From: Flavobacteriales bacterium
GTDB lineage: Bacteria; Bacteroidota; Bacteroidia; Flavobacteriales; UBA7430
Assembly (NCBI GenBank): GCA_002692065.1
Contig: NZJX01000004.1
Span: 1-56,200, forward strand
Direction: 5' to 3'
DNA length: 56,200 nucleotides
Notes under the pieces: generated by a model
Seen by the model: the letters and a program-made list of their open reading frames with translations, nothing else
Databases searched by the model: none
Told to the model about the DNA's origin: nothing
Part shown: positions 1 through 56,200 of the stretch, one piece after another
Position numbering within the stretch: the stretch's first letter is position 1
Layout of the letters: each line of letters opens with the position of its first letter
Program-made: the position numbers and the translations under genes

Positions 1-3000
1 GAAACACTATTGTCAACTACAGGTAAATTTGATAATCTATATGACTCGTCATTTGAAAGATATTGTAAAACATCTTCATGTTGAAGCTTTAATTGATAAC
101 CTTGACCTGGGTGTAAATCGCCAATACCATTAAAACTCCATTCAGGTAAATATGCTAATCCAGTATAGTCTTTAACAATAATCAAATTGTCAGAGGAAGC
201 AAAATCTGAAAAAACTAAATCTGCTGGGGCAGGCTCAATTCTTAGGTAACCTACCATACTCCAGCCAGATGGTAGACTAACAGAATTTTCCTCAGGGAGC
301 ATATATTGTCCGGTATAACTTAAACTATTGGAATTTAATAGCTTAATTTGATAGCCGTGACCAATTTGACAATCACCTATACCGTTAAAACCCCACTCAG
401 GTAAATATGCTAATCCAGAATTATCTTTAGCAATTATAACATCATCATGTATTTGGTATAACATATCTGCCATATCCATACTTTCAGTATACATGTATGT
501 AGAGAACATACTCCATCCCTCCGGAAGATCTATACTTTGCTCCGTTACGAGAGGAATCGCTTCTATTCCAACTAATACAGAAATTCCATTTATTACAAAT
601 TGATCTTGATTTAAAGCACTTTCAAGATAAGTAGCATTAACCTCTATTTGTGTTTGTGAAGAATTATCCCAAACAAACCAATTAAATTGTTCATCAGCAG
701 AAAAACCATCAATTTCGTCAGTAGTAGTGTCGTCACCTTGAACTGCAACTGCATTATTTTCTCCAGTCCATAAGGTGTAACCACCACATTGTAATTCTCC
801 ATTTGAATCATAGTAAAAAGCCCCAATTGCATCTCCAGATTCTAATTGAACACCTTGATCTAAAGAAACTTGAAGAGTAGCATCAATTACCACAGTGTGA
901 TTGGACCCAGTGATTGAAAAATCCCATGGTACAGAGGAAAAAGTACAAGACCCGTCATCCTCCGTTGCATCTGAATCAAAATTTGAGGCAGAATTATCAG
1001 TACATCCGAAAATTGAGAATATACAAGACCCGTTGTCAATACTAGCATTTGGATTAAAGTTTGATGCTTGAGAATCAGTACATCCAGTTGTACCACCACA
1101 ATATTGAGAGAAATAAATTTGGCCTTCATTACCATCTTCTAAGGTTCCACTTGCAAGATCACATAATTCTTCATATTGCAAAGAAAATTCTCCGCCATTC
1201 CATCCATCACCAAACGAATCAAATAAGTTAAATATAAAACCAGCATTATTATTTGGTAAACATAAATTAACTTGATAAGATTCATTAGTTTCATATCCGT
1301 CTCCTGATAAAATAACATCTCCTGAAGATACATCTTCTATTGACCAGCTAATTTCATATCCAAAGTTTTGAGTGTTCAATGTTAATAAAGCATATACTCC
1401 TTCACATTCAAATATACAAGATTCGTCATCTTGTGTAGCATCTGGATTATAATTGAGTGCTGTTTGATCAATACATCCATATACTGTATAAATACAAGAA
1501 TCATCATCTTGTGTTGCGTCAGGATTATAATTTTCAGCAGATTGATCAGTACATCCTAAAATGTAATCACATGAATTATCATCCTGAGTTGCATCAGGAT
1601 TATAATTTTCAGCTAAAGTGTCAGTACAACCATATACTGGTCCACATTCTCCGTCATAGTTTAAACCAAAAAATAATACGCCTTCATTAACTGAACCTTC
1701 TAGGGTACCATACAATAATAAAGAATCATTACTATTTTGAGTAATAGTTACATAATTATTATTCCAACCATCACCATAAGTATCATACATATTAAAAGAT
1801 AAACACCCTTCATGTAAACACAATTCAGTAAAGCCAACTTCTCCCTGATTACCCTGAAGTTCCCAACTCACTTCATACAAATATGATCCTCCGCCCACAT
1901 CAATTGAAACTCCAATTTCTCCATCAAAACATTCGATTGGAGGATATTCACAATTGTTATCATCTTGTGTTGCATCAGGATTATAATTTACCGCTGTGGT
2001 ATCCATACATCCAAATATGTATGTACAGGAATTATCGTCAATTTCGGCTTCAGAGTTATAATTTTCTGCAATTTCATCAGTACATCCATATACTGGACCA
2101 CATTCTCCTTCATGATTTAATCCGAAAAATAAGACTCCCTCATCAACGTAGCCCTCGAGAGTTCCATATAATAAAGTTAATGAGGAATCTCCCTCAGCTT
2201 GTGTTATTGTAACATAATTATTATTCCAACCATCTCCCCAACTATCATACATATTAAATGAAATACATCCATCTTGGAGGCATGCATCATAATTTCCCAC
2301 TCCACCATCAAATCCTTGAACATCCCAACTTACTTCATTTTGCCAGGTACCCCCACCAACTTCAATTGTTACAGAAGTGCCTTCATTACAAATAATTGTC
2401 TGGCAAGAACCATCGTCAGTATTTGCATTTGGATCATACTCTGCATAATTTGGATTTGTACATCCCAATACTGCAATACATTCACCATCATAATCTAAAC
2501 TGAAAAATAGTGCTCCTTCATCCCCATTCTCAAGAGTTCCCTCTAATAGAATTGAATCATTACTATTTTGAGTTATTACTACAAAATTATCATTCCAGCC
2601 ATCTCCCCAACTATCATACATATTAAATACATAACAAGAGTTATTTAAGACACAGTACTGCATTCCAAGACCTGTACCACCATCATTTCCATCAAACTCC
2701 CAACTTAATTCCCAAGAATAGAATCCTCCTACTACCACATCTACAGTTATTGCTTCGTATCCATCACTACAATTTAAAGTTAAACAAGAACCATCATCTG
2801 TATTTGCATCTGGATTATATTCACCATAATTAGAGTCAGTACAACCTAAAACATAATACTCTCCACAATCACCATCAAAATTTACTCCAACTGAAAACTG
2901 ACCTTCTGAACCACTTTCAAGAGTACCATACAATAATGTCGATTGATTACTATTTTGAGTAATAGTTACATAATTATTATTCCAACCATCACCATATGTA

Positions 3001-5387
3001 TCAAACATATTAAATGTTAAGCATGAAGAGTCTTGAAGACAATATTGCATATCAGATCCAATACCCCCCTCATTTCCATTTAATTCCCAACTTACTTCAT
3101 TTTGCCATGTACCACCTCCAATAGATATATTAACTCCTTCAAAACCTTCATTACACTCGATTAATGGGTACTCACAAGATTCATTTTCTACATTAGCCAA
3201 GGAATCATAATTAGTTGCTAATGGATCTAAACAACCATAAATTGCTTCACATTGTTCCTGTGAATTCAATGAAAAAAAGTGGCTTCCAGAAGTTCCCTCA
3301 GGAGAAATTGTCCAGCCGTAAGAAGGAAGAGAAGCAGTAGTAATGACTGAATCATCTATTGAAAATGTTGCTAAACCTCCATTCCAACCATCACCATAAG
3401 AATCAAACATTTGAAACTGCCAGCATCCATTTTCTAAACAAAAACCGTGGTTCCCTTCAGTTTCTCCAAAAGAATATGATTCTGAATATAAATTTTCATC
3501 ATTGAAAATTAAATTCCAGGAAATTTCACCAAACCAATCACTTCCTGAAATATTTAAAGATACACTATTATAATTATCATCACACTGAAGGGTAACACAA
3601 CTTCCATCATCAATATTAGCATTTGGATTGAATTCTGCATAATTTGGATCCATACAACCATATACTGCAATACATTCTGATTGGAAATTTAAACCAAAAA
3701 ATAATACATCTTCAGATCCACTATCCAATGTACCATCTAACAAGATGTTACCATTAGAATTATTTGATATAACTACCATATTCCCATTCCATCCATCACC
3801 ATATGAATCAAACATTATAAAAGGATAACATGAAGAATCAAGTAGACAATACTGCATATTTAATCCTACTCCACCTTCAATGCCATCCAATTCCCAAGTT
3901 ACTTCATTTTGCCATGTACCACCTCCGAGGTTAATTGTTACTCCCTGATAACCCTCATCACATTCAATTGGAGGATATTCGCAGAGTGAGTTATCTTCTT
4001 CCATAGCTTCTGGATTAAAATTTGAAGCTGTTGGATCCATACATCCCTCAATAGGGCCACACTGATCATAAAAATTTAAAGGAAACCACTCGACATTTTC
4101 AAATCCACTTGTAAAAGTTTCATAAAGTAAAGTTGAATCAATATCTGTTTGATTGATAGAAACATAATTACCATTCCATCCATCACCCCAAGAATCATAC
4201 ATCATAAAAGTATAACACCCATTTGCTAGACAAAATTGACTAGATCCTATGTCTCCTGATAGAAGAACACTTGCCCCAGAGGTATCCACACTACCATCAT
4301 CATTTAAAATTACATTTTCTAGTAATTCCCAGCTTACTTCATTTTGATAATATCCACCACCTATATCAATTGATATGGGAGAAAGATCATTGGAAAGACA
4401 ATTACCAAAACAATCTAATCCTTCTTCAGGTCCGTCACCACCGCATGTACCACACTCATCTAATTCTTGACATGAACCATTATCAAAAACTGCTTGAGGG
4501 TTAAAATTACATGCTGTACTATCTGTACAACCGTAATCACTCGTCACTTCGGCATTACTGATTATCCAATCAAAAGCATATGAAACTCTAGCCCATACTC
4601 CAGGATAATTAACATCAGCACATCCATAGCCCCAACTCGTAGCACCAACTAATAACCATCTAGTATTGTCAGAACTTCTAACAACTAGAGGGCCTCCAGA
4701 ATCTCCTTGGCAAGCATCTTCTCCTCCATCAACTAAATCTCCAGCAGTTATCATAGATTCATGAAGTTGTGAACATGGATAACTTCCAGAATTACCATTT
4801 TCGTCTTGAGCAGCTCCACATGCAACATCATTTTCAACAATTGGTGCTTGAGCCATTTGAAGAGTAGATGCCAAAGGACCTCCAGAAGCTGTTGTTCCCC
4901 ATCCAGTGATTGTAGCCATGACTCCACCATCTTCGCTTCCTGCTGTAACCTCTGATGGATCAATTAAATCAATTTTCTGAACAAAATCAGAATAAATAAA
5001 TGTTCCTTCTATTTCGAGCAATGCAAAGTCATGCGATATACTGGTAGGTGAACCATAACTTGGATGAACAATTATTTGTGAAACTGAATATACATCACCA
5101 CCAATAGCAAAAGATGAAGACTCTCCAGCACGGACAAATAAGTTCGATGGACTAGTCCCATTAACACAGTGAGCAGCAGTTAAAACCCATGAATCACCAA
5201 TAATAGATCCCCCACAAAAACCAGATCCTCCTGGACTTGATGTCAAACCAACTTGCCATGGATAATCTTTTATATTTACATCAACGCCCCCTACTACCCT
5301 CTCTTGAGAAAAAACATTATTTGAAATAAGTGAGTAAAATAATATCAAATAGGATGTTTTAACTATTATTTTTTTAATATTTTGCAT
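1..5387 (-). CDS. Giant secreted trypsin-like (S1A) serine protease with Cys-paired repeats, DSxGDGWN modules and a tandem GWS/GWN-YQIK module; 3' end lies outside the window (>1795 aa)
   Basis: Not in the ORF track because it has no stop in the window. Manual translation from ATG 5387 gives MQNIKKIIVKTSYLILFYSLISNNVFS-QER-VVGG..YPWQV..CGGSII..WVLTAAHC..HDFALL..DACQGDSGGPLV..SWGYGCA..YPGVWARVS. Then come 13 GCxD..C repeats and 8 D(S/T)(Y/W/F)GDGWN modules. The same frame is still open at position 1 (..SYRLSNLPVVDNSVS). Confidence 0.93.
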   Translation of the reverse strand, partial: MQNIKKIIVKTSYLILFYSLISNNVFSQERVVGGVDVNIKDYPWQVGLTSSPGGSGFCGGSIIGDSWVLTAAHCVNGTSPSNLFVRAGESSSFAIGGDVYSVSQIIVHPSYGSPTSISHDFALLEIEGTFIYSDFVQKIDLIDPSEVTAGSEDGGVMATITGWGTTASGGPLASTLQMAQAPIVENDVACGAAQDENGNSGSYPCSQLHESMITAGDLVDGGEDACQGDSGGPLVVRSSDNTRWLLVGATSWGYGCADVNYPGVWARVSYAFDWIISNAEVTSDYGCTDSTACNFNPQAVFDNGSCQELDECGTCGGDGPEEGLDCFGNCLSNDLSPISIDIGGGYYQNEVSWELLENVILNDDGSVDTSGASVLLSGDIGSSQFCLANGCYTFMMYDSWGDGWNGNYVSINQTDIDSTLLYETFTSGFENVEWFPLNFYDQCGPIEGCMDPTASNFNPEAMEEDNSLCEYPPIECDEGYQGVTINLGGGTWQNEVTWELDGIEGGVGLNMQYCLLDSSCYPFIMFDSYGDGWNGNMVVISNNSNGNILLDGTLDSGSEDVLFFGLNFQSECIAVYGCMDPNYAEFNPNANIDDGSCVTLQCDDNYNSVSLNISGSDWFGEISWNLIFNDENLYSESYSFGETEGNHGFCLENGCWQFQMFDSYGDGWNGGLATFSIDDSVITTASLPSYGWTISPEGTSGSHFFSLNSQEQCEAIYGCLDPLATNYDSLANVENESCEYPLIECNEGFEGVNISIGGGTWQNEVSWELNGNEGGIGSDMQYCLQDSSCLTFNMFDTYGDGWNNNYVTITQNSNQSTLLYGTLESGSEGQFSVGVNFDGDCGEYYVLGCTDSNYGEYNPDANTDDGSCLTLNCSDGYEAITVDVVVGGFYSWELSWEFDGNDGGTGLGMQYCVLNNSCYVFNMYDSWGDGWNDNFVVITQNSNDSILLEGTLENGDEGALFFSLDYDGECIAVLGCTNPNYAEYDPNANTDDGSCQTIICNEGTSVTIEVGGGTWQNEVSWDVQGFDGGVGNYDACLQDGCISFNMYDSWGDGWNNNYVTITQAEGDSSLTLLYGTLEGYVDEGVLFFGLNHEGECGPVYGCTDEIAENYNSEAEIDDNSCTYIFGCMDTTAVNYNPDATQDDNNCEYPPIECFDGEIGVSIDVGGGSYLYEVSWELQGNQGEVGFTELCLHEGCLSFNMYDTYGDGWNNNYVTITQNSNDSLLLYGTLEGSVNEGVLFFGLNYDGECGPVYGCTDTLAENYNPDATQDDNSCDYILGCTDQSAENYNPDATQDDDSCIYTVYGCIDQTALNYNPDATQDDESCIFECEGVYALLTLNTQNFGYEISWSIEDVSSGDVILSGDGYETNESYQVNLCLPNNNAGFIFNLFDSFGDGWNGGEFSLQYEELCDLASGTLEDGNEGQIYFSQYCGGTTGCTDSQASNFNPNASIDNGSCIFSIFGCTDNSASNFDSDATEDDGSCTFSSVPWDFSITGSNHTVVIDATLQVSLDQGVQLESGDAIGAFYYDSNGELQCGGYTLWTGENNAVAVQGDDTTTDEIDGFSADEQFNWFVWDNSSQTQIEVNATYLESALNQDQFVINGISVLVGIEAIPLVTEQSIDLPEGWSMFSTYMYTESMDMADMLYQIHDDVIIAKDNSGLAYLPEWGFNGIGDCQIGHGYQIKLLNSNSLSYTGQYMLPEENSVSLPSGWSMVGYLRIEPAPADLVFSDFASSDNLIIVKDYTGLAYLPEWSFNGIGDLHPGQGYQLKLQHEDVLQYLSNDESYRLSNLPVVDNSV
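950..4540 (-). repeat. Coding array of alternating Cys-paired repeats and ~100-aa DSxGDGWN modules in the protease
   Basis: D(S/T)xGDGWN near 4180, 3795, 3390, 2990, 2600, 2235, 1770 and 1205 (period ~390-460 bp); shared DNA such as ACTTCATTTTGCCA.GTACC near 2335, 3095 and 3900. Confidence 0.85.
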
Positions 5388-10309: not shown

Positions 10310-11368
10310 ATGAAAAAAATGAAAAAATATTTATTAGCTCTAAGTTTATTTATTTCTCAAATTTTAACTTCACAAGATTGTTCTGATTTATTTATTTCTG
10401 AATATGTGGAGGGTTGGGGAAATAATAAAGTTATTGAATTATTTAATCCAACGATGAATCCTATTGATTTAAGTAATTATGTTTTATCAAGATGGTCTAA
10501 TGGATCTACTTCTCCAACTCCTGTCAATCTATCTGGAACAATAATGCCTAATGATGCTTTTGTAATTTGTATTGACAAAAGAGACCCGAATGGATCAGGA
10601 TTTGAAGCTCCTATTTGGAACGGATGGTATATTTTTACAGATAGTATAACTAACATGTTAGACAGTATTTATACTGAAGAAGAAGATCTTTTATCTAAAG
10701 TAGATCTTTTCATATGTCCAAGCTACGATTGTGCCATGTATTTCAATGGCAATGATGCTGTTACTCTTGAAACAGTTTCTGGAGATTTTATTGATATTTT
10801 TGGAAAAATTGGAGAAGATCCAGGTCTTGGCTGGTCTGACGGAACTGGAGCTATCTGGACTCAAGACCATACTTTAATTCGAAAAAACTCTGTAAAATCC
10901 GGATTTACATATGATCCAGGTCAACCTTATACATTTGATCCAAGTCTTGAATGGGACTCACTACCTGCTAATACTTTTGTTAATCTTGGTTTCCATGATT
11001 GTAATTGTGACAACTACATTGAAGTATCTGGATGTACTGATATTTATGCATCTAATTACGATTCGTTAGCCACTTTAGACGATGGATCCTGCGAGTATAT
11101 GAATGTAAATATCAATAAGTCAATTGATTTTTCAATTTATCCAAACCCCTCAAATCATATTTTAAATATTATTTTTAATGAAAATCAAAATGATTTTAAA
11201 GTAAAAGTGATAAGTACAATAGGTAGAGTCCTATTTGAAAAGAAATTTGGATCTGTTAGATTAAATAAAGTTCAAATAAATTTAATGGATATTTATCCAG
11301 GATCATATTTTGTTGTTATTGAAAGTAATTTCAAAAATTATATTAAAATGATTAGTATTACTCAATAA
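10310..11368 (+). CDS. Lamin-tail-domain (LTD) protein with one Cys-paired repeat and a T9SS type A C-terminal domain
   Basis: Signal peptide ending LTS-Q; LFISEYVEG..NNKVIELFNPT..IDLSNY..FNGNDAV..DHTLIRK (ExeM-type LTD); GCTD..DDGSC; IYPNPS...G.YFV CTD. Confidence 0.85.
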   Translation: MKKMKKYLLALSLFISQILTSQDCSDLFISEYVEGWGNNKVIELFNPTMNPIDLSNYVLSRWSNGSTSPTPVNLSGTIMPNDAFVICIDKRDPNGSGFEAPIWNGWYIFTDSITNMLDSIYTEEEDLLSKVDLFICPSYDCAMYFNGNDAVTLETVSGDFIDIFGKIGEDPGLGWSDGTGAIWTQDHTLIRKNSVKSGFTYDPGQPYTFDPSLEWDSLPANTFVNLGFHDCNCDNYIEVSGCTDIYASNYDSLATLDDGSCEYMNVNINKSIDFSIYPNPSNHILNIIFNENQNDFKVKVISTIGRVLFEKKFGSVRLNKVQINLMDIYPGSYFVVIESNFKNYIKMISITQ

Positions 11369-11376
11369 ACTTTTAA

Positions 11377-14148: not shown

Positions 14149-14149
14149 C

Positions 14150-17100
14150 ATGAAAAAACATTTATTAATATTATACTTTATTACATTAAATTCAATTTTT
14201 GTAAATTCCCAAAATTCTAATTACTATGAAAATTCCCAAAATTTAGTTGGTGAAGATCTTAAGGAATCTCTTCATAATCTAATTAAAAATCATAATGAGT
14301 TTTCTTACAGTTCTAGTAAACAAATTTTAAAATTAAGTGATGAAGATCCTGCTAATTCCTCAAATATAATACTCATTTATAAAGGGAATTCGATTAATAA
14401 AGATGATTTTGCATCTAACATGGAGCCAAACTTTTGGAATAGGGAACATGTTTGGGTTAAATCACAAGGAGGATTTAATGGTGATGAAACATACGGGAAT
14501 AAAGGTGCTTACAGCGATGCCCATAATCTAAAACCTTGTGATGCAACAATCAATTCAGATAGAGGTACCAAAGATTTTGATAATGGAGGAGTTCCAAACT
14601 CTGAAGCAGTAAATTGTAATTTTACTAGTACAACTTGGGAACCAAGAGATGAAGTGAAAGGAGATGTTGCTAGAATTATTTTTTATATGGATGTCAGATA
14701 CAACGGGGCTGAAGGAGAACCAAATTTGTCGGTGGTAGACTATATTAATAACTCATCTACTCCTTTCCATGGAAAACTTTCAACTCTTCTTGAATGGAAT
14801 GAAATTGACCCTGTTGATGCATTTGAAAGAAGAAGAAATCAAGTAATTTTTAATTGGCAACAAAATAGAAACCCATTTGTTGACTATCCTGATTTTGCAA
14901 ATTTAATTTGGGGAAACTCCTCACCCAATTCCTTGGGGTTTAATGAAGTAAATTTAGAATATTCCAATCCTAGTGAAATTCAAAGCCAAAGTATTTCAGT
15001 AGATATTTCTAATTCATTTATTACCCCAATTGATCAAGTTGAACTTAGATATGCTTCATCATGGTTCGACATTTATGATGATAATGGAATTATCGAAGAA
15101 TACAATTCTTTGATGACATTAAATAGTGAAACAGGTCTTTATGAAGGTAATATTCCTAGTTTCCCGGAAGGAACAGATGTAAAATATACTATCACAATAA
15201 GATTAGATAGCTTTAATAATACTTTCTATGGAAATTATAAAGTTGCTTTAAATCCATTTGAAGGAGAGTTAATATCTATACAAGATGTTCAGGGAAATTC
15301 AGATTACTCACCATATGAGAATGAGACAATATCTACAAAAGGAGTTGTAACAGCAGTTATTGGAGATGATTTCTATATCCAAGATGGTACTTCTCCAAGA
15401 AGTGGGATATATGTTTATACTTCTCCCGTAATTCCCTCTTTGGGTGACAGCGTAATAGTAACTGGGGAAGTTTCAGAATTCCAATGGGAAGATCCAACTG
15501 ATGAAAAAATGACTGAGTTAGCTTATCCAGATGCCGTATATATTCTTAATTCAAATAATCCAATTCCTGAACCTGTTGATATAGAAACTGGCAATCTGAA
15601 TTCGGAAGATTTTGAGGGAATGCTAGTAAAAGTTAATAATGTTACTGTAACTTATGCAACTTTTAACTTTGATGACTATGGACAATGGAAAGTTGATGAT
15701 GGTTCTGGTCAATGTAATATTCACAATACGATTGAAGGATATGAATACCCTGCTGTAGTAGGTGAATACTTATCTTCAATAACTGGGGTTAGTAACTATT
15801 TATTTGGTGAGTGGAAAATTGATTTACGAATGCCTGACGATGTTGATGGTGCTCCGGATACTTTTGCTCCATCAATAGTTAGTTGCGAAGTAATAAACGA
15901 AAGTTCAATTAACTTAATTTTTAATGAAGATTTAGATGAAACTTCTGCTGAAAACATCGAAAATTATTCAATTAATAACAATGTAATAATTAATTCTGCT
16001 AATCAAAATCTTTTTCAAAAATCCAGAGTGGTTTTAAGCGTTTCAAATTTATTAACAGGTAATTACGTTCTAACAATATCTAATGTTGAAGACTTACTTG
16101 GCAATTATATAGTAAATGAAACAATTTCTTTTGACTTCATTGAACTTAATGATCAAATATTGGGGTGTACTGATATAAATGCATTAAATTTTAATGAATT
16201 AGCTAATATTGACGATGGCTCATGCGAATATAATTCAAATCCTATTTTTGAAAAATCATTATTTTTCTCAGAATATGCTGAAGGTAGTTCTTATAATAAA
16301 TATCTTGAAATATATAATCCTACCAATGAGAAAATTAGTCTAGATAATTATGGATTCCCTAGCTGTGCAAATGATCCAACTGATCAAATTTCAATTGGGC
16401 CTCATGAATACTGGAATAATTTCCCACAAGGAGCAGAAATAGAATCTCAAGAAGTTTATATTATAGCTCATCCTCAAGCTGATGACTACATATATGATTT
16501 AGCTGACCATTTTCATCAATATTTAAGTAATGGGAATGATGGATATGCACTAGTTTATGGGACCGAAGAAAATTATGAAATTATTGATAAAATTGGTGAT
16601 TGGGTTGAAGATCCAGGAAATGGTTGGGATGTTGCTGGAGTTAGTGATGCTACTATGGATCACACTTTAATTAGAAAATGTGAAATTAGTAGTGGTAATT
16701 CAGATTGGAATTCATCAGCTGGTACTAATGCAGAAAATTCTGAGTGGATTGTCAATAATAACGAAGATTGGTCAAATCTAGGAATACATAATATTTGTTA
16801 TGATCAAATCATTTTTGGTTGTACTGATGAAAATTCAATAAATTATAATCCTAATGCAACTTTAGATGATGGAAGTTGTATTGATCCAATATTTGGATGC
16901 ATGGATTCTACTTACCAAGAATATGATCCTATGGCAAATGTAAATAATCCAGATGATTGTTTAAATCTTATAGGAATCCATAAAATAAATTTTAATGAAA
17001 GCTTTAAACTTTTTCCAAATCCTAGCGATCAATTAATTAATCTAGTTGCTAATAACAACTTTAAAAAAATTAATATTAGTATTACAAATAATATTGGGAT

Positions 17101-17242
17101 ATTAGTATCAAAAATTGAATTCGGAAATATGAAACAAAATGACAAAATTCAAATTGATATATCTGAACTCAAATCTGGCTTTTATTATATAATTTTAAAT
17201 TCACGAGAATTAAATGTGAGTAGCTACTTTGTGAAAAACTAA
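14150..17242 (+). CDS. Secreted endonuclease I / Bsn-family nuclease with OB-fold region, Ig-like domain, LTD, Cys-paired repeats and T9SS CTD
   Basis: [26 protein letters not shown] and [22 protein letters not shown] (His-Me finger); [35 protein letters not shown] and EGMLV (ExeM-like OB folds); [12 protein letters not shown]; FPNPS CTD. Confidence 0.92.
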
Positions 17243-31075: not shown

Positions 31076-34000
31076 ATGAAAAAATATATTTTAATTCTCT
31101 TTTTTTCAAATTTAATATTCTGTAATAATTTATATCCCCAGTGTGGAATTATTGACTCTGAAATTTTAATTCTTAATCAAGAAGATTTTTTATCATACTC
31201 TAATTGCGAATCTATTGATGGTAACGTCGTAATTAACGGAGAAAATATAGATTCGTTAATTTTTTCTAATTTAATATCAATTAATGGTAATTTAAATATT
31301 TTTAATACCAATATTACCTCAATTGCACCATTATCTAGTTTAATGAATGTTAATGAAATTAATATATATAATATTAATCTTTTAGATAACTGCTGTTCAT
31401 CACTTAACTGGCAATCACTAATTGAACTTGGGACTATATCAAATTTAAATATTCACTCCAACTCAACTAATTGTAGTTCAACTATAAGTATAAATATCTC
31501 ATGTTTAGGTCTCTTAGAAGGGTGTACGGATAGTAACTCTTTAAACTTCAATCCATTAGCTACAATTGATGATAATAGTTGTTTAAACGGTCCTGATCTT
31601 CAAGTATCTGCATCAGCTATTATAAATTCTCTGGAAATAAGTACTTTTAATAGTGAAGATAATTGTTTAGTAGCTGAGGGATGTATTTCAGGAATTGGAA
31701 ATAGGAAAATATTAAAATTCACAACAACAATCTCAAATTATGGGAATGAAGATTTTTATATTGGTGAAACTGGGGGAGCTGAAAATTTAAATGAAAATTT
31801 TTACTGGGATGATTGTCATGGTCACGCTCATTATGAGGGTTATGCCAATTATAAGCTATTTTATTACCCATCCTTAGAACAACATCCAACAATTGGACAT
31901 AAAAATGGTTGGTGTGTTATGGACTTAGGTAATGCCGTTACTTCTGAAGCCCCAGATAATGCTAATTATCCTCAATGTGAGTTTGAATACGGATGTTCCA
32001 TCATGGGTATAAGTGCTGGATGTTCCGACACTTATGGATCTGGGTTATCATGTCAATGGGTAGATATTACAGATTTATATGATGGTCAATATATTTTAGG
32101 AGTCTCTACTAATATGGAAACTGAGAATTATACTCCTCAATATGAAACTAATTATTCAAACAATTCAGTATATATATTATTTGAATTTGAAAATAATGAA
32201 ATTATTTCAGTTTCCCATTTTGATGACAATTCTATAACTGAAAATTGTACTATAGATATTGATAATTCTGAATTTGGATTTCATATCTCCAACGAAAATA
32301 ACTTCCTTTATGCTTTTACAAACGAATTTTTCAATGAATCTATTCAAATTAATATTAGTGATAGTATTAATATTAATAATGATGTTTTTGTAATTGACTC
32401 ATTAATAATTAATGATATAACTAATTTACCAGATAGTATTGAATGGAATTGCAGTAACGAAAATTGTACTTTTTATCCTGGTAATTCTTGTCTTGGAATT
32501 TATGGTATTACAACTTATACAGGTGAGTTTTCGCTCATATTTAATTCAACTTTATATTTATCGGATGATAATGACTTATCATCAATAATAAATATTCCAA
32601 ATATATTTCAAAATAATGAACCTGATTTAGAAGAAAATTTAATTAACAACGAAAGCAGTTTAAATGATTTAGATCCAAACTTTACTATATTGATAACTGA
32701 TCCAATATATGGTTGTATAGACTCATTTGCTCTAAATTTTGATAATAATTCAAATTTCGATGATGGTTCTTGTATTTTTCCAAATATTGGATGTACTGAC
32801 TCATTTGCTCTAAATTTTGATAGTTTTGCAAATATCGAAGATGGTTCTTGCGAATACTGTACAGAGGGGATAGAATGGATTGTTAAAATGAATTTATTTG
32901 ACTCATATGGTGACGGATGGAATGGGAATAACTACTACATCATTGATGATCAAAATGATACCATAATCGAAGGAACTCTAGATGATGGTTACGAAGGTGA
33001 AAACTTATTTTGCCTATCTCCGGGGTGTTATTCTATAAGTGTCCCAAATGAAAATCCTTGGCCATATGAAATTTCATGGGAGTTGTCAGCTCAAGGATTC
33101 TCTGAAGTAAACTTAAATGGTGATTGTCCTGATTTAGTTCCATTTAACTTTTTAAGTGATTGTGATTTCAGTATAGGTTGTACAGATTCTTCTGCATTAA
33201 ATTATGATAGTACTGCAGTATTTAATAATGAAGAATGTATATACCCTCTTTTTGGTTGCATTGATTCATCAGCATTAAATTATAATACTAATGCAAATTA
33301 TAGTGATTCTAGTTGTGTATATCCTAATCTATGTAATAATAATGAGAATTCTTTAGTTTTATTTTTATTTGATTCATATGGTGATGGTTGGAATGGAAAT
33401 AACCTCACATTATACAATTCTAGTTATGATTCAATAATTTTTGAAACAACATTAGACTCTGGATATGAGGGAATTGAGACCTTATGTTTAGATAATGAAT
33501 GTTATTTGATATCTGTGACTGGAGGAAATTGGCAAAGCGAAATTACATGGGAAATTAAAAGTACAACTGATGAATTAATTTTAAATGGCAATTCTCCATT
33601 AACCAGCTTTTTTGGTCTAAACTCAACATGTGACTCAATATTTGGATGTTCAAATCCATCTGCAATAAACTATAATCCAAGTGCAGGTTCAGATGACTTT
33701 TCTTGTATTTTTGAATCTTCAGCATGCGAGGACAATTATAATTTAATTAATTTAGAACTTCAAACAGATCCGTATCCAAATGAAACATCTTGGTCAATAA
33801 CAAATGATGAAAATGATACTCTGATTTTTATTGATTATTATGAAAATCAAAATGCTCTGTATTCTGATTCATTCTGCGTTCCACAAAATATATCTCTGAA
33901 CTTTAATCTATATGACTCATATGGTGATGGTCTCACAAGTGGTGCGGGAAATGGAGAATTTAAATTCTTTGTCTGTGGTTTACAAGTATTTTCAGGGTCA

Positions 34001-35101
34001 AGTTTTGAATATCAATTTTCAGGAAATTTTCATGACTGTGAAGGAACATCTATTAGTATCTATGGATGTACAGACAGTATAGCCTTAAATTATAATTTGA
34101 ATGCTAATTATAATAATGGTTCTTGTGAATATGGTGAAATTTTTGGCTGTACAGACGAATTTGCAATTAATTTTAATCCAATGGCTAATATAGATGATGA
34201 TCAATGTGAATATATTTATTGCGATTCAAATAATCACATAATTGAATTAAATATACAAAATACAAATTATGAGAATAATCCTAATATTGAGTATTCAATT
34301 TTATCATTAAATAATCAATCATTATCTTATGATAGTTTATCCAACATAATAAATTTCACTCATTATTATTGCTTAGAGGCTGGATGCTATATATTTTATC
34401 CGAATAATGTCTCAGAAAATCAGTCATACAGCTGGTCTATAAGCTCTGGAAATAAAAAAATAATTTCAGGAGATAATGAAAATAAGACAAGTTTTGAAAT
34501 AAGCTCCATTTGTAACTTAAATTTTGGATGTAATGATGAAAATGCCTTAAATTTTGATTACAGTTCAAATTATAACGATAGTACTTGTATTTATAATGAT
34601 TCCTTAGTAATAAATTTAACAGACGGGTGGAATATGGTTTCTTCATATATTCAATCAGAAAATATGAATATAATTAATCTCACAAATAATATTTTAAATG
34701 AAATTATAATAATAAAAAATAATATAGGTTTAGTCTTCATTCCAGAGTGGAATTTTAATTCAATTGGTAATTGGTCAAATTATGAGGGTTATCAAATAAA
34801 AGTTTCAAATAATTGTGATATAACTTTCTATGGTCAAGCTCTTGTTCCTGAGGAAAATCCTATAATGTTAAATCAAGGTTGGAATTTAATTAGTTATTTT
34901 AGGCAAAATGAGGCTTCGGTAGAAGGTATTTTCTCATTAATAAATAATAATATAATAATAGTTAAAAACTCAATAGGACTTGCTTACTTGCCAGATTGGG
35001 GTTATAATGGAATAGGAAATTTTGAACCAGGTCAAGGGTATCAAATAAAAATGATTATCAATGATGAATTAAATTATTTACCAAATAACTTAAATTATTA
35101 A
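31076..35101 (+). CDS. Large secreted protein: receptor-L-like domain, lysyl-oxidase domain, Cys-paired repeats, DSYGDG modules, C-terminal tandem GWN-YQIK module
   Basis: Signal peptide; LOX motifs [63 protein letters not shown]; 9 GCxD..C repeats; no YPNP-type CTD. Confidence 0.9.
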
Positions 35102-51967: not shown

Positions 51968-54900
51968 TCAAAATGATATTGAAAAGCTAGTATTAACCTT
52001 AATTTGATATCCAGATCCAGGAGTAAAATTGCCAATCGAATTATAATTAAACTCAGGCCAATATTGGTCTCCGTTATTATCTTTCATAATATCAATATAA
52101 TTATCATTTTCTCCAAGAACTTGACTGATATCAATAATTTCATTTGAACAATATCCAAACATATTCCAACCCTCTTGAAATACGATATTAATTGTATCGC
52201 ATTGAAAATTTTGATTTGATAAATTTATTTGAGAATTTAAAGAATCTAATTGATTTAGAAGTATATTCTGTAAATCTATAACATTTGAATATGCCTCACC
52301 CCAGCTATTTGAACATGAATTATCATCAATATTTGCATTTGAATTGAAGTTTATAAAATTATCATCTGTACAACCCAAAATATTTGAAGTTTCATCATTT
52401 TCTATGTCGGTATTACCAAAAACTAATGAAAAAGGTGAATTAACCTTAATTTGATATCCAGATCCAGGAGTAAAATCTCCTATTGAATTATAATTAAATT
52501 CTGGCCAATACTGATCTCCATTATTATCCTTTAATATTTCTATATAATCATCAAAATCTTTCATTACTTCACCAATATCATTTGGGGTTGAAGCTGTGTA
52601 GCCAAACATATTCCATCCTACTTGAAACTGAACAGTAATCGCACATTGATTAGCAATTACTGAATCAATATGATATTCAATTGACGAAATTTCATCATAT
52701 AAATTAAAATTCATACTTTCTACTGTAGTATATCCTAATTCCCAAGATGTATTGCAAGTACCATCATCAACATTTGCATTTGTATTGAATTCCATATAAT
52801 TAGCATCCATACAACCCAAAATTATACCAATACATGAGCCATTATCAAAATTAGCATTGGGGTCAAAATTTAAAGCATTGGGATCAATACATCCATTGAC
52901 AATATAAATGCAAGAGCCATCATCTACATTGGCTTCTGAATTATAATTATTTGCTAAAAAATCCATGCATCCTAAGTTTATATTAATACAAGAACCATCA
53001 TCAGCATTTGCATGTGAATTAAAATTCAATGAATTAAAGTCCGTACATCCATAAACCATATCAATACATGATCCATTATCAAAATTAGCATTATCATCAT
53101 AATTAAATGCATTTAAATCTGTACAACCAAAAATCAGTTCAATACATGAATTATCGTCAATATTAGCATCTGGATTATAATTTAATGATCCAGAAGTTGT
53201 ACACCCAAGAATGATTTCTTGACAAGAACCATCATCCTCAGTTGCATTCATATTATAATTTAAGGAATTTGGATTCATACATCCCGATATAGGATATCTG
53301 CACGATCCGTCATCTAAATTTGCATTTGGATCAAAGTTTAATGCATTTGAAAATATACATCCTAATATGACTTCTTCACATGATCCATCATTTGTATTTG
53401 CTGAAGGGTTGTAGTTAATTGCATTTAAATTAATACACCCTAAAATTATATCCTCACATGAATAGTCATCAGTATTAGCTGAAGGATTGAAATTAAATGC
53501 TAAAGGATCTGTACAGCCTAATGAGATTGCTTGACAAGAACCATTATCAGTATTAGCAAAAGCATCATAATTAAAAGAGTTAAGATTAATACATCCCAAT
53601 ACTACATCAATACAACTTCCATCATTAAAATTTGATATTGAATTATAATTAAATGCATTAATATCAGTGCAACCTGGTATTACTTCTATACAACTTCCAT
53701 CATCTTCATTTGCTAAATTAAAATAATTTAATGCTAGAGGATCTGTACAACCAAAAATAGAGGGATAAATACAAGAATTATTGTCAACATTTGCCCCAGG
53801 ATCATAATTGCTTGCTATTTCGTCCATACAGCCTAAAATTATACATGTTCCATCTTCAATATTTGCATTTGGATTGTAATTTTCAGCAATAGAATTCATA
53901 CATCCTGAAATTTCTATTAAACAAGAACCATTATCTTGAGTAGCTAAAAAATTATAATTAGATGCTGATATGTTAGTACATCCAAGAATAATTAAAATGC
54001 AAGAGTTATCGTCAACATTTGCAAATGAATCATAATTTTCAGCACTAGGATTTGTACATCCTAGAATTATACAAGAACCGTCATCTTCATTTGCTTCAGG
54101 ATTATAATTAGACGCTATTGGATCTATACATCCTAATACAATATATGTACAAGATGAATCATTTGTGTTTGCTTCAAAATTATAATTAGATGCCAGAAAG
54201 TCTGTACATCCAAATATAATATCAATACAAGATCCATTATCTGTATTTGCTTCAGAATTGTAATTAAATGATAGCGGATTTATACATCCATAAATTATTG
54301 GAATACAAGTACCATCATCTGTATTTGCTTCAGAATTGTAATTAAATGATAGCGGATTTATACATCCTAAAGTTATATCTTCACATGATCCATCATCTGT
54401 ATTTGCCTCAGAATTATAATTATATGATAGCGGATTTATACATCCTAAAGTTATATCTTCACATGATCCATCATCTGTATTTGCTTCAGAATTAAAATTA
54501 TATGATAAACCATTTGTACAACCCAAAATAATATCCTCACAAGATCCATCATCTGTATTTGCCTCAGAATTATAATTATATGATGAACTATTAATACATC
54601 CCATCACAACCGATATACATGACCCATTATCAGTTGTGGCTTGGGAGTTGTAATTGAATGATAATCTATCCGTACATCCCTCAATAATGCATGAATTATC
54701 ATCTTGTGTTGCGTCTAGATCATAATTCAAAGCAATAGGATTCATACACCCAGAATATGTACACGATGAATTATCCACTAAATAAATACCTTGATTTATA
54801 ACATTCTGCAATGAACTGCTAAAGTTAGTTGAATTTGGATCGGCATATGAAATATAATTATTTGCTTGATCATCTATGCAAATTAAATTACTAGAGATTC

Positions 54901-56200
54901 TATTTAAATTGAATAACCCAGAAAATTGACAAGATCCATCATCTTCATTTGCAGCAGGATTGAAATTTGAAGCAAAAGGAACCACACATCCAGGGACAGA
55001 GTACAAACATAAATTATCTTCTGTATTTGCTAGAGAATTATAATTGAATGCTAATTCATCCATACATCCATAAATTACTGGGATACAAGAGTTATCCTCA
55101 GTATTTGCTAGAGAGTTATAATTGAATGCAAGAGGATTTAAACACCCATACAGGAATCCAACACAAGATCCATCATCTGTATTTGCCTGAGAATTATAGT
55201 TGAAGGCTCCAGGAGAAACACAACCATATTGCACAGGTTCACATACACCATTGTCAGTATTTGCAATTGGATCATAATTAAAAGCATTTGGATTTGTACA
55301 ACCATATATGTAACCTTCACATGTTCCATCATCTGTATTTGCCTCAGAACTATAATTGTATGCCCCCTCGTTTAAACATCCATAAATTACTGGGATACAA
55401 CTACTATCATCAATATTTGCAACAGAATTATAATTGAAGGCATCCATATTTGTACATCCAAGAATTACTTCAATACACGATCCATCATCTGTATTTGCCT
55501 GAGAATTATAATTAAAGGCTAATTCATCCATACATCCGCTTATAACTGGTATACAACTTCCATCATCAATATTAACTTGTGAATCAAAATTAAATGCATT
55601 GGGATTATTACATCCATAGATAATATTCACACATGACTCATCATCCGTATTAGCCTGAGAATTATAATTTAATGCTAATTCATCTAAACATCCATAAATT
55701 ATTGCCTCACAGGATTGATCATTTACATTTGCAAGCGGATTATAATTGAACGCTTGGGGATTTGTACAACCATTTACTATTAATACACAAGATCCATCAT
55801 CTGTATTTGCCTGAGAATTGTAATTGAACGCTAATTCATCCATACAACCATCAACAACTGGTATACATGAATCATCATTCGTATTTGCTTGAGAATTATA
55901 ATTGAAGGCTATAGGATTCATACATCCTAAAATTATATCTTCACATGTTCCATCATCTGTATTTGCCTGAGAATTATAATTGGACGCTAATTCATCCATA
56001 CAACCATCAACAACTGGTATACATGAATCATCATTCATATTTGCTTGAGAATTATAATTGAACGCTTGGGGATTCATACATCCAAGAATTACTTCAATAC
56101 ACGATCCATCATCTGTATTTGCCTGAGAATTATAATTGAACGCTAATTCATCCATACAACCATCAACAACTGGTATACATGAATCATCATTCGTATTTGC
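51968..56200 (-). CDS. Giant Cys-paired tandem-repeat protein with a duplicated C-terminal GWN-YQIK module; 5' end lies outside the window (>1410 aa)
   Basis: The frame stays open from 56200 (ANTNDDSCIPVVDGC-MDELA..); about 44 units of ~26 aa; ends ..PGSGYQIKVNTSFSISF. Confidence 0.92.
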   Translation of the reverse strand, partial: ANTNDDSCIPVVDGCMDELAFNYNSQANTDDGSCIEVILGCMNPQAFNYNSQANMNDDSCIPVVDGCMDELASNYNSQANTDDGTCEDIILGCMNPIAFNYNSQANTNDDSCIPVVDGCMDELAFNYNSQANTDDGSCVLIVNGCTNPQAFNYNPLANVNDQSCEAIIYGCLDELALNYNSQANTDDESCVNIIYGCNNPNAFNFDSQVNIDDGSCIPVISGCMDELAFNYNSQANTDDGSCIEVILGCTNMDAFNYNSVANIDDSSCIPVIYGCLNEGAYNYSSEANTDDGTCEGYIYGCTNPNAFNYDPIANTDNGVCEPVQYGCVSPGAFNYNSQANTDDGSCVGFLYGCLNPLAFNYNSLANTEDNSCIPVIYGCMDELAFNYNSLANTEDNLCLYSVPGCVVPFASNFNPAANEDDGSCQFSGLFNLNRISSNLICIDDQANNYISYADPNSTNFSSSLQNVINQGIYLVDNSSCTYSGCMNPIALNYDLDATQDDNSCIIEGCTDRLSFNYNSQATTDNGSCISVVMGCINSSSYNYNSEANTDDGSCEDIILGCTNGLSYNFNSEANTDDGSCEDITLGCINPLSYNYNSEANTDDGSCEDITLGCINPLSFNYNSEANTDDGTCIPIIYGCINPLSFNYNSEANTDNGSCIDIIFGCTDFLASNYNFEANTNDSSCTYIVLGCIDPIASNYNPEANEDDGSCIILGCTNPSAENYDSFANVDDNSCILIILGCTNISASNYNFLATQDNGSCLIEISGCMNSIAENYNPNANIEDGTCIILGCMDEIASNYDPGANVDNNSCIYPSIFGCTDPLALNYFNLANEDDGSCIEVIPGCTDINAFNYNSISNFNDGSCIDVVLGCINLNSFNYDAFANTDNGSCQAISLGCTDPLAFNFNPSANTDDYSCEDIILGCINLNAINYNPSANTNDGSCEEVILGCIFSNALNFDPNANLDDGSCRYPISGCMNPNSLNYNMNATEDDGSCQEIILGCTTSGSLNYNPDANIDDNSCIELIFGCTDLNAFNYDDNANFDNGSCIDMVYGCTDFNSLNFNSHANADDGSCININLGCMDFLANNYNSEANVDDGSCIYIVNGCIDPNALNFDPNANFDNGSCIGIILGCMDANYMEFNTNANVDDGTCNTSWELGYTTVESMNFNLYDEISSIEYHIDSVIANQCAITVQFQVGWNMFGYTASTPNDIGEVMKDFDDYIEILKDNNGDQYWPEFNYNSIGDFTPGSGYQIKVNSPFSLVFGNTDIENDETSNILGCTDDNFINFNSNANIDDNSCSNSWGEAYSNVIDLQNILLNQLDSLNSQINLSNQNFQCDTINIVFQEGWNMFGYCSNEIIDISQVLGENDNYIDIMKDNNGDQYWPEFNYNSIGNFTPGSGYQIKVNTSFSISF
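51992..52476 (-). repeat. 447-bp-period internal duplication of the C-terminal module
   Basis: Identical 38-mer ATTAACCTTAATTTGATATCCAGATCCAGGAGTAAAAT at 51992-52029 and 52439-52476. Confidence 0.9.
52750..56200 (-). repeat. Coding tandem array of ~78-bp units (GCxD/NxxAxNY/FxxxANxDDGSC)
   Basis: About 43 consecutive units, one with an insertion near 54760-54890. Near-identical DNA copies at ~54230-54580. A 156-bp A/B dimer at ~55720-56200 (56104-56200 vs 55792-55888 differ at one base by eye). Confidence 0.95.

What the first reader, a model, noticed from the sequence alone, without database searches (positions are those of the whole stretch)
34600..35101. Unnamed paired 'GWN...KxNxG..YxPEW/FxxNxIG...GYQIK' module: possible docking, anchoring or alternative export signal
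Seen: a ~75-aa unit occurs exactly twice in each of three giant proteins: protease ~70-530 (GWSMFSTY..AKDNSGLAYLPEWGFNGIGD..GHGYQIK), LOX protein ~34600-35085, and repeat protein ~51970-52190 and ~52420-52640. In the last two it forms the extreme C-terminus and no YPNP-type T9SS CTD follows, whereas the LTD and nuclease proteins have a classical CTD and lack this module. In the protease more sequence follows, so a CTD beyond the window edge is possible. Inference: a dockerin-like interaction or cell-anchoring domain, or a non-canonical sorting signal.
Basis: partly seen in the sequence, partly recalled or inferred. Interest (0 to 1): 0.78.

Follow-up and report, generated by a model that had tools for sequence, protein, structure and literature searches.

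The report
Unannotated self-pairing tail domain of secreted enzymes
A roughly 80-residue protein module with no name in any database ends many exported enzymes of small marine flavobacteria; it seems to zip into pairs and is a new domain that sits beside the known type IX secretion signal, not a copy of it.

Summary
The ~80-aa module occurs twice in each of the three window proteins, at the stated places. It is also a genome-wide family: 37 modules in 24 ORFs.

It matches nothing in Pfam, NCBIfam or PDB sequences. A profile finds 10,253 protein clusters at E<=0.001.

Position is strict. Of 150 representatives, 76 end at the module, 33 continue with an Ig-like "X" domain plus a type A T9SS CTD, 32 continue with X plus a short CTD-like tail, and 9 do something else.

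The module is not a CTD:
- The type A, B and C models miss it.
- Profile comparison with the genome's own CTDs gives 0.5% probability.
- A confident model (pLDDT 94.8) is alpha/beta, with best PDB Z 4.2. The CTD of the same cassette hits solved T9SS CTDs at Z 9.4-10.6.

Single modules are predicted to homodimerise through the signature GWN and GYQIK strands (0.84 versus 0.01 for controls).

Best reading: a new self-pairing, non-catalytic association domain at the passenger's end. How the CTD-less forms leave the cell is open. The scan's notes hold nothing earlier on this module.

The parts
31076..35101 (+). Gene of the 1341-aa lysyl-oxidase-domain protein. It ends with the tandem pair and has no CTD.
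   Evidence: ORF. PF01186 at aa 192-376. An identical 1341-aa cluster, P0004, has 10 members on 7 contigs.
34604..34837 (+). LOX protein, module M1 of the tandem pair (aa 1177-1254)
   Evidence: HMM domain E 5e-33. Falls in the M1 clade, 99/96. Part of the AF2 pair model, pLDDT 94.8.
34853..35086 (+). LOX protein, module M2 (aa 1260-1337). The stop codon is at 35099-35101.
   Evidence: HMM domain E 7e-34. AF2 pair model pTM 0.87.
3..5387 (-). Gene of the trypsin-domain giant protease. Its 3' end is cut by the contig end.
   Evidence: PF00089 at aa 31-275. The window starts at contig base 1.
531..932 (-). Protease: unannotated Ig-like X domain directly upstream of the pair
   Evidence: X-domain HMM, E 1e-11, aa 1490-1623 of the open frame
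306..542 (-). Protease, module M1
   Evidence: HMM domain E 2e-35
51..290 (-). Protease, module M2. It is followed by the start of the linker to X before the contig ends.
   Evidence: HMM domain E 2e-32. Paralogue C1 has the same end and continues into X.
51968..56200 (-). Gene of the Cys-repeat protein (5' end outside the window). It ends with a module.
52409..52639 (-). Repeat protein, first module (single-type subfamily)
   Evidence: HMM domain E 1e-35. Falls in the clade with the single-type modules, 98/93.
51971..52192 (-). Repeat protein, second module (single-type). It is the extreme C-terminus.
   Evidence: HMM domain E 4e-34
11135..11347 (+). Comparison: classical type A T9SS CTD of the LTD protein (no module)
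   Evidence: TIGR04183, 36.9 bits. PF18962.
17009..17239 (+). Comparison: classical type A T9SS CTD of the endonuclease I/LTD protein (no module)
   Evidence: TIGR04183, 30 bits. PF18962 and PF04231.

Best explanation
The module is a previously unannotated, autonomously folding alpha/beta unit of about 80 residues. Its working form is a two-module unit.

In tandem proteins (LOX, protease), a distinct first module (M1) and second module (M2) pack in cis into one compact domain of about 165 residues. In single-module proteins, two chains are predicted to pair in trans. In that predicted dimer the two signature motifs, the GWN strand and the GYQIK strand, form the two-fold interface.

The unit is the last passenger domain of Sec-exported proteins in T9SS-bearing Bacteroidota, and it is hugely expanded in one family of small marine Flavobacteriales. 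When a T9SS signal is present, it is supplied separately by an Ig-like X domain plus a type A CTD, or by X plus a short CTD-like tail.

Inferred, not shown: the unit works as a non-catalytic association domain. It would hold very different enzymes at the cell surface, or to one another, or to a common ligand. The candidate site is the conserved stretch outside the interface (the Y-x-P-E ... N-x-I-G loop). On this reading it is not itself the export signal.
For: Family and boundaries:
- 37 modules in 24 ORFs of this genome.
- 10,253 clusters at E<=0.001 and 6,254 at E<=1e-10.

No known family:
- Pfam, NCBIfam and PDB sequences give nothing.
- The nearest ESM Atlas clusters carry no common Pfam family.

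Fold:
- The AF2 pair model has pLDDT 94.8 and pTM 0.87. Each module runs strand-strand-helix-helix, then four or more strands.
- Foldseek finds nothing at E<=0.001, and the best VIA hit is Z 4.2 (rmsd 3.0, 70 aligned).

Separate from the signal:
- In the cassette model (pLDDT 90, pTM 0.50), residues 313-401 hit solved T9SS CTDs. Examples: 8qb1 Z 10.6 (rmsd 1.9, 76 aligned), 6za2 Z 9.9, 5m11 Z 9.5, 8glk_D Z 9.5, 8gl6_D Z 9.4.
- No CTD is among the 50 rows shown for the pair model.
- hhalign of the module against 34 CTDs of the same genome gives probability 0.5%.
- TIGR04183, TIGR04131 and NF033708 have no hit on any module.

Position:
- 150 representatives: 76 terminal, 33 with X + type A CTD, 32 with X + short tail, 9 other.
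- The pair-X-CTD cassette recurs in distant genomes of the phylum, for example locus L027.

Cargo is very mixed: LOX, trypsin, C25, M14, M43, GH16, GH18, endonuclease I, thioredoxin-like, PAD, Kazal. This argues for a general role rather than a substrate-specific one.

Self-pairing:
- Two copies of a single-type module score 0.84, 0.83 and 0.84. The best of 3 controls scores 0.01.
- That mark was reached by 20 of 30 proteins solved as pairs of one chain, and by 1 of 23 solved as single chains. These counts hold only roughly, because my own alignment was used.
- The runs share at least 86% of contacts, and partner pLDDT is at least 92.
- The interface is residues 2-9, 15-23, 44-45, 63-69 and 81.

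M1 modules form one clade, 11 of 11, support 99/96. The pair is therefore inherited as a unit.
Against: - No ligand or partner is known. The association role is inferred from position, cargo breadth and analogy only.
- 16 of the 24 carriers in this genome end at the module with no A, B or C-type CTD. At least 10 of those 16 show a signal-peptidase-I-like leader, judged by eye; no predictor was run.
- The CTD-less carriers include giant repeat proteins and enzyme families known as T9SS cargo. Something must take them across the outer membrane if they act outside, and the module is the only shared C-terminal feature.
- The same enzyme families occur in both forms. Endonuclease I has a CTD in this window but a terminal pair in P0071, with 52% identity in the catalytic domain.
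- The dimer is a prediction. A tandem pair already satisfies its own interface, so trans docking would apply only to single-module proteins.
- No coordinates were available, so I could not check that the M1-M2 interface equals the predicted homodimer interface.
Confidence: 0.45

Rival explanations
1. Export-related role for the CTD-less forms. Either the terminal pair is a fourth, non-CTD type of T9SS targeting element, or it is a handle by which CTD-less proteins ride out on CTD-bearing partners (piggyback). For single modules this could happen by trans pairing with single-module proteins that carry the short tail.
For: - 16 of 24 carriers in this genome, and 76 of 150 representatives, end at the module with no CTD.
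- Cargo families are the same as in the CTD-bearing forms: C25, M43, GH16, CotH, LOX, endonuclease I.
- Most carriers have SPI-type leaders, not lipoprotein leaders (by eye).
- All 13 module-bearing genomes of 251 sampled have SprA, against a base rate of 199 of 251.
- Passages read from PMC10994853 say type A CTD recognition rests on the size and shape of a plastic pocket rather than on conserved motifs.
- Predicted trans pairing of single modules.
- Two single-module proteins with the short tail exist in this genome, on contig C8.
- A stand-alone protein made of signal peptide, X and CTD exists at C7:153930-154730.
Against: - 65 of 150 representatives keep a separate X + CTD-type tail after the pair.
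- Terminal and tailed pairs are intermixed in the tree. The terminal label needs at least 35 changes on 136 rows, and at least 10 are forced by well-supported branches. There is therefore no specialised signal subfamily.
- There is no sequence, profile or fold likeness to CTDs, although CTDs in the same library were found with the same method.
- A tandem pair has its interface occupied in cis.
- SprA co-occurrence is weak evidence: the base rate is 79% and relatives are not independent.
- Thioredoxin-like and M14 carriers could well act in the periplasm.
Confidence: 0.2
2. Substrate- or particle-binding module, like a CBM or lectin. It would tether secreted enzymes to algal or detrital polymers rather than to the cell.
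For: - It occurs on GH16, GH18 and GH2-like enzymes.
- The conserved aromatic and polar stretch lies outside the predicted interface.
- The two-fold unit would offer two such sites.
- Single modules are often followed by a lectin-like Lcl_C domain (PF07603) in other proteins.
- There is a weak VIA row to a metagenomic CBM, 5klc, Z 3.3.
Against: - Most carriers are proteases, oxidases, nucleases, inhibitors or redox proteins, not CAZymes.
- No CBM family matches.
- Z 3.3 is at noise level.
Confidence: 0.15
3. Purely structural role. It would be a stabilising or dimerising end-cap or spacer with no targeting function. It would dimerise single-module enzymes and serve as a rigid C-terminal cap or stalk in tandem proteins.
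For: - The signature motifs are explained by the interface alone.
- The pair is compact and confidently modelled.
- In the cassette it is flexibly linked to X and the CTD: pTM 0.50, and pLDDT 59 in the linker block.
Against: - A mere spacer would not be held so strictly at the passenger's end, nor kept at 19 to 63 copies per small genome.
- Conserved residues outside the interface remain unexplained.
- At least one protein consists of only a signal peptide and the pair: P0242, 178 aa.
Confidence: 0.15

Closest known systems
T9SS type A C-terminal domain (TIGR04183 / PF18962)
   Same: About 80 residues. It lies at the C-terminal end of the same kinds of exported enzymes, in T9SS-positive Bacteroidota, and in many copies per genome.
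   Different: - No HMM or profile similarity.
- The predicted structure is alpha/beta with two helices. It is not the Ig-like 3+4 beta-sandwich described in the abstract of PMC11285876.
- It usually comes in twos.
- In 65 of 150 representatives it lies upstream of a real CTD-type tail.
Dockerin (type I, PF00404) of cellulosomes
   Same: A duplicated, internally two-fold C-terminal module on many different secreted enzymes.
   Different: No sequence match. The module is far larger, about 80 residues per repeat; the figure of about 22 residues for a dockerin repeat is recalled, not from a call. No cohesin-like partner was identified. The only predicted interaction is module with module.
Non-covalent surface-anchoring repeats of Gram-positives (Listeria GW modules, SLH domains) - recalled, not tested beyond Pfam
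   Same: Tandem repeats of about 80 residues at the C-termini of diverse exoproteins. If the association reading is right, they would play the same part.
   Different: No Pfam match to those families at E<=1. The host has a different envelope (an outer membrane). The predicted fold is different.
RCK_C / TrkA_C domains (structural resemblance only)
   Same: Small alpha/beta domains that work as dimers or tandem pseudo-dimers. 9 of the 50 VIA rows are of this kind, at Z 3.3-3.7, for example 4xtt_B with rmsd 2.9 over 62 aligned residues.
   Different: The Z values are at noise level for this library. There is no sequence match. Those domains are cytoplasmic ligand sensors.

Membership tests
T9SS type A CTD (TIGR04183 / PF18962) | Match to the family HMM above its cut-off | tested here: not met
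   A whole-genome scan found 42 places over the cut-off, none on a module. Pfam and NCBIfam give nothing on the pair or the single module at E<=1, while the cassette's own CTD scores 46.6 bits.
T9SS type A CTD (TIGR04183 / PF18962) | Remote homology by profile-profile comparison | tested here: not met
   hhalign of the module profile (34 rows) against 34 CTDs of the same genome gives probability 0.5% over 6 columns.
T9SS type A CTD (TIGR04183 / PF18962) | Ig-like 3+4 all-beta sandwich, beta1-beta7 (abstract of PMC11285876, seen in the listing) | tested here: not met
   DSSP on the AF2 model (pLDDT 94.8) gives two helices between strands 2 and 3 of each module. This rests on a prediction, not a solved structure.
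T9SS type A CTD (TIGR04183 / PF18962) | Structural match to solved CTDs | tested here: inconclusive
   No CTD is among the 50 VIA rows shown for the pair model (best Z 4.2). The cassette's CTD hits solved CTDs at Z 9.4-10.6 in the same library.
T9SS type A CTD (TIGR04183 / PF18962) | Extreme C-terminal position | tested here: inconclusive
   76 of 150 representatives are terminal, but 65 of 150 are followed by X plus a CTD-type tail.
T9SS type A CTD (TIGR04183 / PF18962) | Needed for T9SS export and removed after it | not testable with these tools
   This needs reporter fusions and T9SS mutants.
T9SS type B CTD (TIGR04131) | Match to the family HMM | tested here: not met
   13 places over the cut-off in the genome, none on a module, at E<=1.
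T9SS type C CTD (NF033708, ChiA type; named in review PMC10202324, passages read) | Match to the family HMM | tested here: not met
   No place over the cut-off. The weak hits lie on type A CTDs, not on modules.
Dockerin type I (PF00404) | Match to the family HMM | tested here: not met
   No hit on the three window proteins at E<=0.1, nor on the pair at E<=1. The model does detect a dockerin elsewhere, in P0124.
Carbohydrate-binding modules (any Pfam CBM) | Match to a CBM family or a clear fold match | tested here: inconclusive
   No Pfam CBM hit. The only CBM row in VIA is 5klc, Z 3.3.
RCK_C / TrkA_C | Fold match well above background, or an HMM match | tested here: inconclusive
   Z 3.3-3.7 in 9 of the 50 rows. 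No Pfam hit.

The most novel reading that the evidence does not exclude
The module is the docking element of a so far unknown export and assembly route in marine Flavobacteriales. CTD-less exoenzymes would pair through it with CTD-bearing carriers, or would be recognised through it by the T9SS. They would then be carried through the wide SprA pore and displayed together. That would be a fourth kind of T9SS targeting and a cellulosome-like way of building surface enzyme sets in abundant ocean bacteria.
Probability: 0.15. Interest if true: 0.85.

Novelty: new variant of a known kind. Interest (0 to 1): 0.6.

Why it matters
The carriers are the exoenzymes by which small, probably uncultured marine flavobacteria would attack proteins, nucleic acids and glycans. 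They include proteases, nucleases, glycanases and oxidases.

A domain present 19 to 63 times per 1-2 Mb genome in all 16 sampled relatives, and in more than 10,000 protein clusters, has no name, no solved relative and no known role.

Its fixed place next to the T9SS signal turns one question into an experiment: how do the many exported proteins without a CTD leave the cell? More than half of the family members fetched here (76 of 150 representatives) lack a CTD-type tail.

If the pairing prediction holds, it also gives a simple new dimerisation module.

Tried and rejected
- **Family libraries.** Pfam and NCBIfam scans of the three proteins, the pair, a single module, a signal-peptide-plus-pair protein and short-tail proteins gave nothing for the module, the X domain or the short tail.
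- **PDB sequences.** A profile search gave a best E of 0.71 (PknD-like repeats), which is chance.
- **Fold searches with the pair model.** Foldseek against the PDB found no match at E<=0.001. VIA wide gave a best Z of 4.2; no CTD, dockerin, cohesin or SPOR entry was among the rows shown.
- **ESM Atlas.** The nearest clusters carry no common Pfam family.
- **Earlier notes of the scan.** Nothing by sequence or by words. The two notes on this genome concern an unrelated MbnP/MbnH/YHYH operon.
- **Neighbouring genes as partner.** 24 ORFs of contig C5, which holds five single-module genes, are ordinary housekeeping and transport genes. There is no recurring outer-membrane partner.
- **Pair binds X.** I considered this from the fused and split forms. 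I did not send it as a complex job, because the cis cassette model has pTM 0.50, which fits independent domains. It remains untested.
- **Stand-alone pair proteins.** The near-length search gave only 24 short hits, most on contigs under 10 kb and probably fragments. One clear case is P0242.
- **Specialised terminal subfamily.** Rejected by the tree. That is a FastTree with 60 of 133 branches open; 16 of 152 rows were dropped for not having two adjacent modules, for another tail class, or for being shorter than 150 aa.
- **Literature.** Three full-text searches and passages of PMC10202324, PMC10994853, PMC12618676 and PMC11205867 gave no description of such a module. This is not proof that none is in print. 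CDD and InterPro could not be queried.

Full report
**What is there**

The window is the first 56.2 kb of contig C21 of a 1.65-Mb, 27% G+C genome in 21 contigs. The genome is 92% complete with 6.8% contamination.

- a 1341-aa protein with a lysyl-oxidase domain;
- a trypsin-domain protease of more than 1795 aa, which runs off the contig end;
- a protein of more than 1410 aa, built of short Cys-bracketed repeats.

Each holds two copies of a roughly 80-residue module. The module starts with a strand bearing G-W-N/S and ends with G-Y-Q-I-K plus one more strand. An HMM of the six copies finds them with domain E-values of 1e-32 to 1e-35. It also finds 31 more copies in 21 further ORFs of the genome, and a 34-row profile recovers the same 37.

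Thirteen ORFs have two modules and eleven have one. The 24 ORFs divide as follows:

| Architecture after the module | ORFs |
|---|---|
| Ends at the module | 16 |
| Unannotated ~130-aa domain (here called X) plus a type A T9SS CTD | 3 |
| Short CTD-like tail (two single-module proteins on C8) | 2 |
| Cut by a contig end just after the pair (the window's protease and its paralogue on C1) | 2 |
| DUF285 repeats | 1 |

**Is it known?**

No.
- Pfam and NCBIfam give nothing on the module, even at E<=1. They do find the catalytic domains and the true CTDs in the same proteins.
- A profile search of all PDB sequences gives only chance rows.
- The nearest ESM Atlas clusters carry no common Pfam family.
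- Three literature searches and passages of four T9SS papers mention type A, B and C CTDs only.

The family is nevertheless large. The profile matches 10,253 clusters (50% identity level) at E<=0.001 and 6,254 at E<=1e-10.

**Where it sits**

I re-scanned the proteins returned by the two big searches with the profile. Position is close to all-or-none:

| After the last module | 150 representatives | 120 closer homologues of the LOX pair |
|---|---|---|
| 0-13 residues (terminal) | 76 | 82 |
| 165-192 residues | 32 | 12 |
| 211-238 residues | 33 | 26 |
| Anything else | 9 | 0 |

- The long tail is X plus a type A CTD. 55 of 59 long tails carry the P-N-P motif, and PF18962 is found where tested.
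- The short tail is mostly X plus a C-terminal piece of about 45 residues. That piece looks like the last third of a CTD but is not detected by the CTD models. A few short tails are a lectin-like Lcl_C domain (PF07603) instead, for example in P0214.
- LOX proteins of the same build in other assemblies (1552-1589 aa) carry pair + X + CTD. The window's 1341-aa form, seen on 7 contigs, stops at the pair and is followed by a convergent gene.
- Single-type modules show the same habit. They are terminal, or followed directly by the short tail, or followed by an Lcl_C domain.

**Who has it**

- All 16 sampled genomes of the same family have it, with 19-63 matches each. So do 3 genomes of two other families of the order.
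- None of 21 genomes from 15 further families of the order has it.
- In a sample of 251 genomes across the phylum, 13 have it, mostly as a single pair. Some are in other classes, and some show the same pair-X-CTD cassette.
- All 13 have the SprA translocon, but so do 199 of the 251. This says little.

**It is not a CTD**

The genome has 42 places over the type A cut-off, 13 over the type B cut-off and none over the type C cut-off. None lies on a module. Profile-profile comparison of the module with 34 CTDs of the same genome gives 0.5% probability.

An AF2 model of the LOX pair from only 11 sequences is very confident (pLDDT 94.8, pTM 0.87). Each module runs strand-strand-helix-helix and then four or more strands, and the two modules pack into one body. 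Foldseek finds nothing in the PDB at E<=0.001. A full VIA scan gives a best Z of 4.2 (9s8b_C, rmsd 3.0, 70 aligned), with HPr, cupin-like and RCK_C rows all within one Z unit of each other.

As a positive control, I modelled the cassette of a genome paralogue: pair-X-CTD, pLDDT 90, pTM 0.50. Its last 90 residues hit solved T9SS CTDs at Z 9.4-10.6. These are the mirolase, PorU and PorZ CTDs and the NucA and RemA CTDs bound in the translocon. X and the CTD look like generic tandem Ig/FN3 sandwiches to Foldseek. The pTM of 0.50 and the low-confidence linker suggest that the pair, X and the CTD are independent beads.

**Self-pairing**

A tree of the 34 modules puts all 11 first modules (M1) in one clade (99/96). 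It puts all single-type modules, together with the two modules of the repeat protein, in another (98/93). The tandem pair is therefore an old M1+M2 unit that moves as a whole.

Two copies of a single-type module, taken from a Kazal-domain protein, were folded with controls:
- The scores were 0.84, 0.83 and 0.84, against a best control of 0.01.
- That mark was reached by 20 of 30 proteins solved as pairs of one chain and by 1 of 23 solved as single chains. These counts hold only roughly, because my own 12-row alignment was used.
- The runs share at least 86% of contacts, and partner pLDDT is at least 92.
- The interface is two-fold symmetric. It consists of the first strand, the G-W-N strand and the G-x-G-Y-Q strand.

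So the family's signature motifs are, in the model, the pairing surface. Other conserved positions lie outside it (the Pro, the Asn-x-Ile-Gly and two lysines) and remain unexplained. This is a model's confidence, not a measurement. I could not compare it with the M1-M2 packing, because no coordinates are given.

**What it most likely does**

Shown:
- a new domain family with a novel or at least unrecognised fold;
- a fixed place as the last passenger domain;
- separateness from the T9SS signal;
- very mixed cargo.

Inferred: a non-catalytic association role. This could be retention at the cell surface, binding of a common ligand, or assembly of enzymes. I put this at about 0.45.

**The main open problem**

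Most CTD-less carriers, and the carriers with a tail alike, show signal-peptidase-I-type leaders with Gln after the likely cut. This was read by eye in 16 of the 21 frames printed (20 carriers plus the stand-alone X-CTD protein), and no predictor was run. The CTD-less carriers include giant repeat proteins and enzyme families that are classical T9SS cargo, yet they have no known way across the outer membrane.

A tree of 136 pairs shows terminal and tailed forms thoroughly intermixed. The terminal label needs at least 35 changes, and at least 10 are forced by well-supported branches. The shuffled mean is 44.8, and 1 of 500 shuffles is as low. There is thus no specialised signal version of the pair, and the X-CTD tail is gained or lost often.

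That fits three possibilities:
- the pair is neutral for export;
- export does not depend on the tail;
- the proteins work on either side of the outer membrane.

I therefore keep an export-related role (direct recognition or piggyback) at about 0.2, a substrate-binding role at 0.15 and a purely structural role at 0.15.

**Verdict**

The sorting-signal half is disfavoured but not excluded.

What is new is a large, unannotated domain family with a predicted self-pairing mechanism. It is a new variant of the known kind 'C-terminal accessory module of secreted proteins'.

Noticed in passing
window 51968-56200 (-); also 31076-35101 (+) and 3-5387 (-): A Cys-bracketed repeat of about 33 residues (G-C-T-D ... 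N-Y-N ... D-D-G-S-C) makes up most of the repeat protein, with dozens of copies. It also links domains in the LOX protein, the protease, the nuclease and many module carriers. No Pfam or NCBIfam match.
   Followed up: no
window 3-5387 (-) and 31076-35101 (+): A repeated domain of about 110-130 residues with a D-S-Y-G-D-G-W-N-G motif occurs about nine times in the protease and about three times in the LOX protein. No Pfam match.
   Followed up: no
window 531-932 (-); G000 C7:153930-154730; 24 ORFs genome-wide: The X domain (about 130 aa, Ig-like in the model) is itself unannotated. It occurs before the pair, between the pair and the CTD, and right after the signal peptide of proteins without any module. 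One 267-aa frame (a protein of about 243 aa from its likely start) is just signal peptide + X + type A CTD.
   Followed up: partly
P0145, P0126, P0304-P0306; G000 C8:10663-13590 and C8:14243-18424; C4:1-333: A C-terminal tail of about 45 residues (... N-V-L-G-Q-E-V ... D-G-T-V-E-K ...) replaces the type A CTD in most of the 32 short-tail representatives (of 150). It is not detected by TIGR04183 or PF18962. hhalign against CTDs gives only 6.8% probability over 18 columns. It may be a shortened T9SS signal.
   Followed up: partly
window 1-136 versus G000 C1:106-241; C4:1-333: The assembly breaks inside the repeated pair/X cassette. C21 and C1 both start within paralogous protease-type genes, with 92% nucleotide identity over 137 bases. 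C4 starts with the end of an X domain plus the short tail, which may be the missing end of one of them. Several loci appear twice on different contigs with identical scores (C4/C10, C2/C7, C8/C12, C9/C16, C10/C19), in line with the 6.8% contamination or redundancy figure.
   Followed up: partly
P0124 (3424 aa): One protein holds 10 modules in the interior, together with PKD domains, a Laminin_G_3 domain, cadherin-like domains and a C-terminal type I dockerin. This architecture is unlike the rest of the family.
   Followed up: no
window 10310-17242 (+): An LTD protein with a CTD, a TonB-dependent receptor and an endonuclease I/LTD protein with a CTD lie head to tail. This may be a nucleic-acid scavenging unit.
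   Followed up: no
P0214, P0225, P0231, P0294, P0297-P0300, P0303: In other metagenome proteins, the module (mostly a single one) is followed by an Lcl_C domain (PF07603) instead of a CTD-type tail.
   Followed up: no
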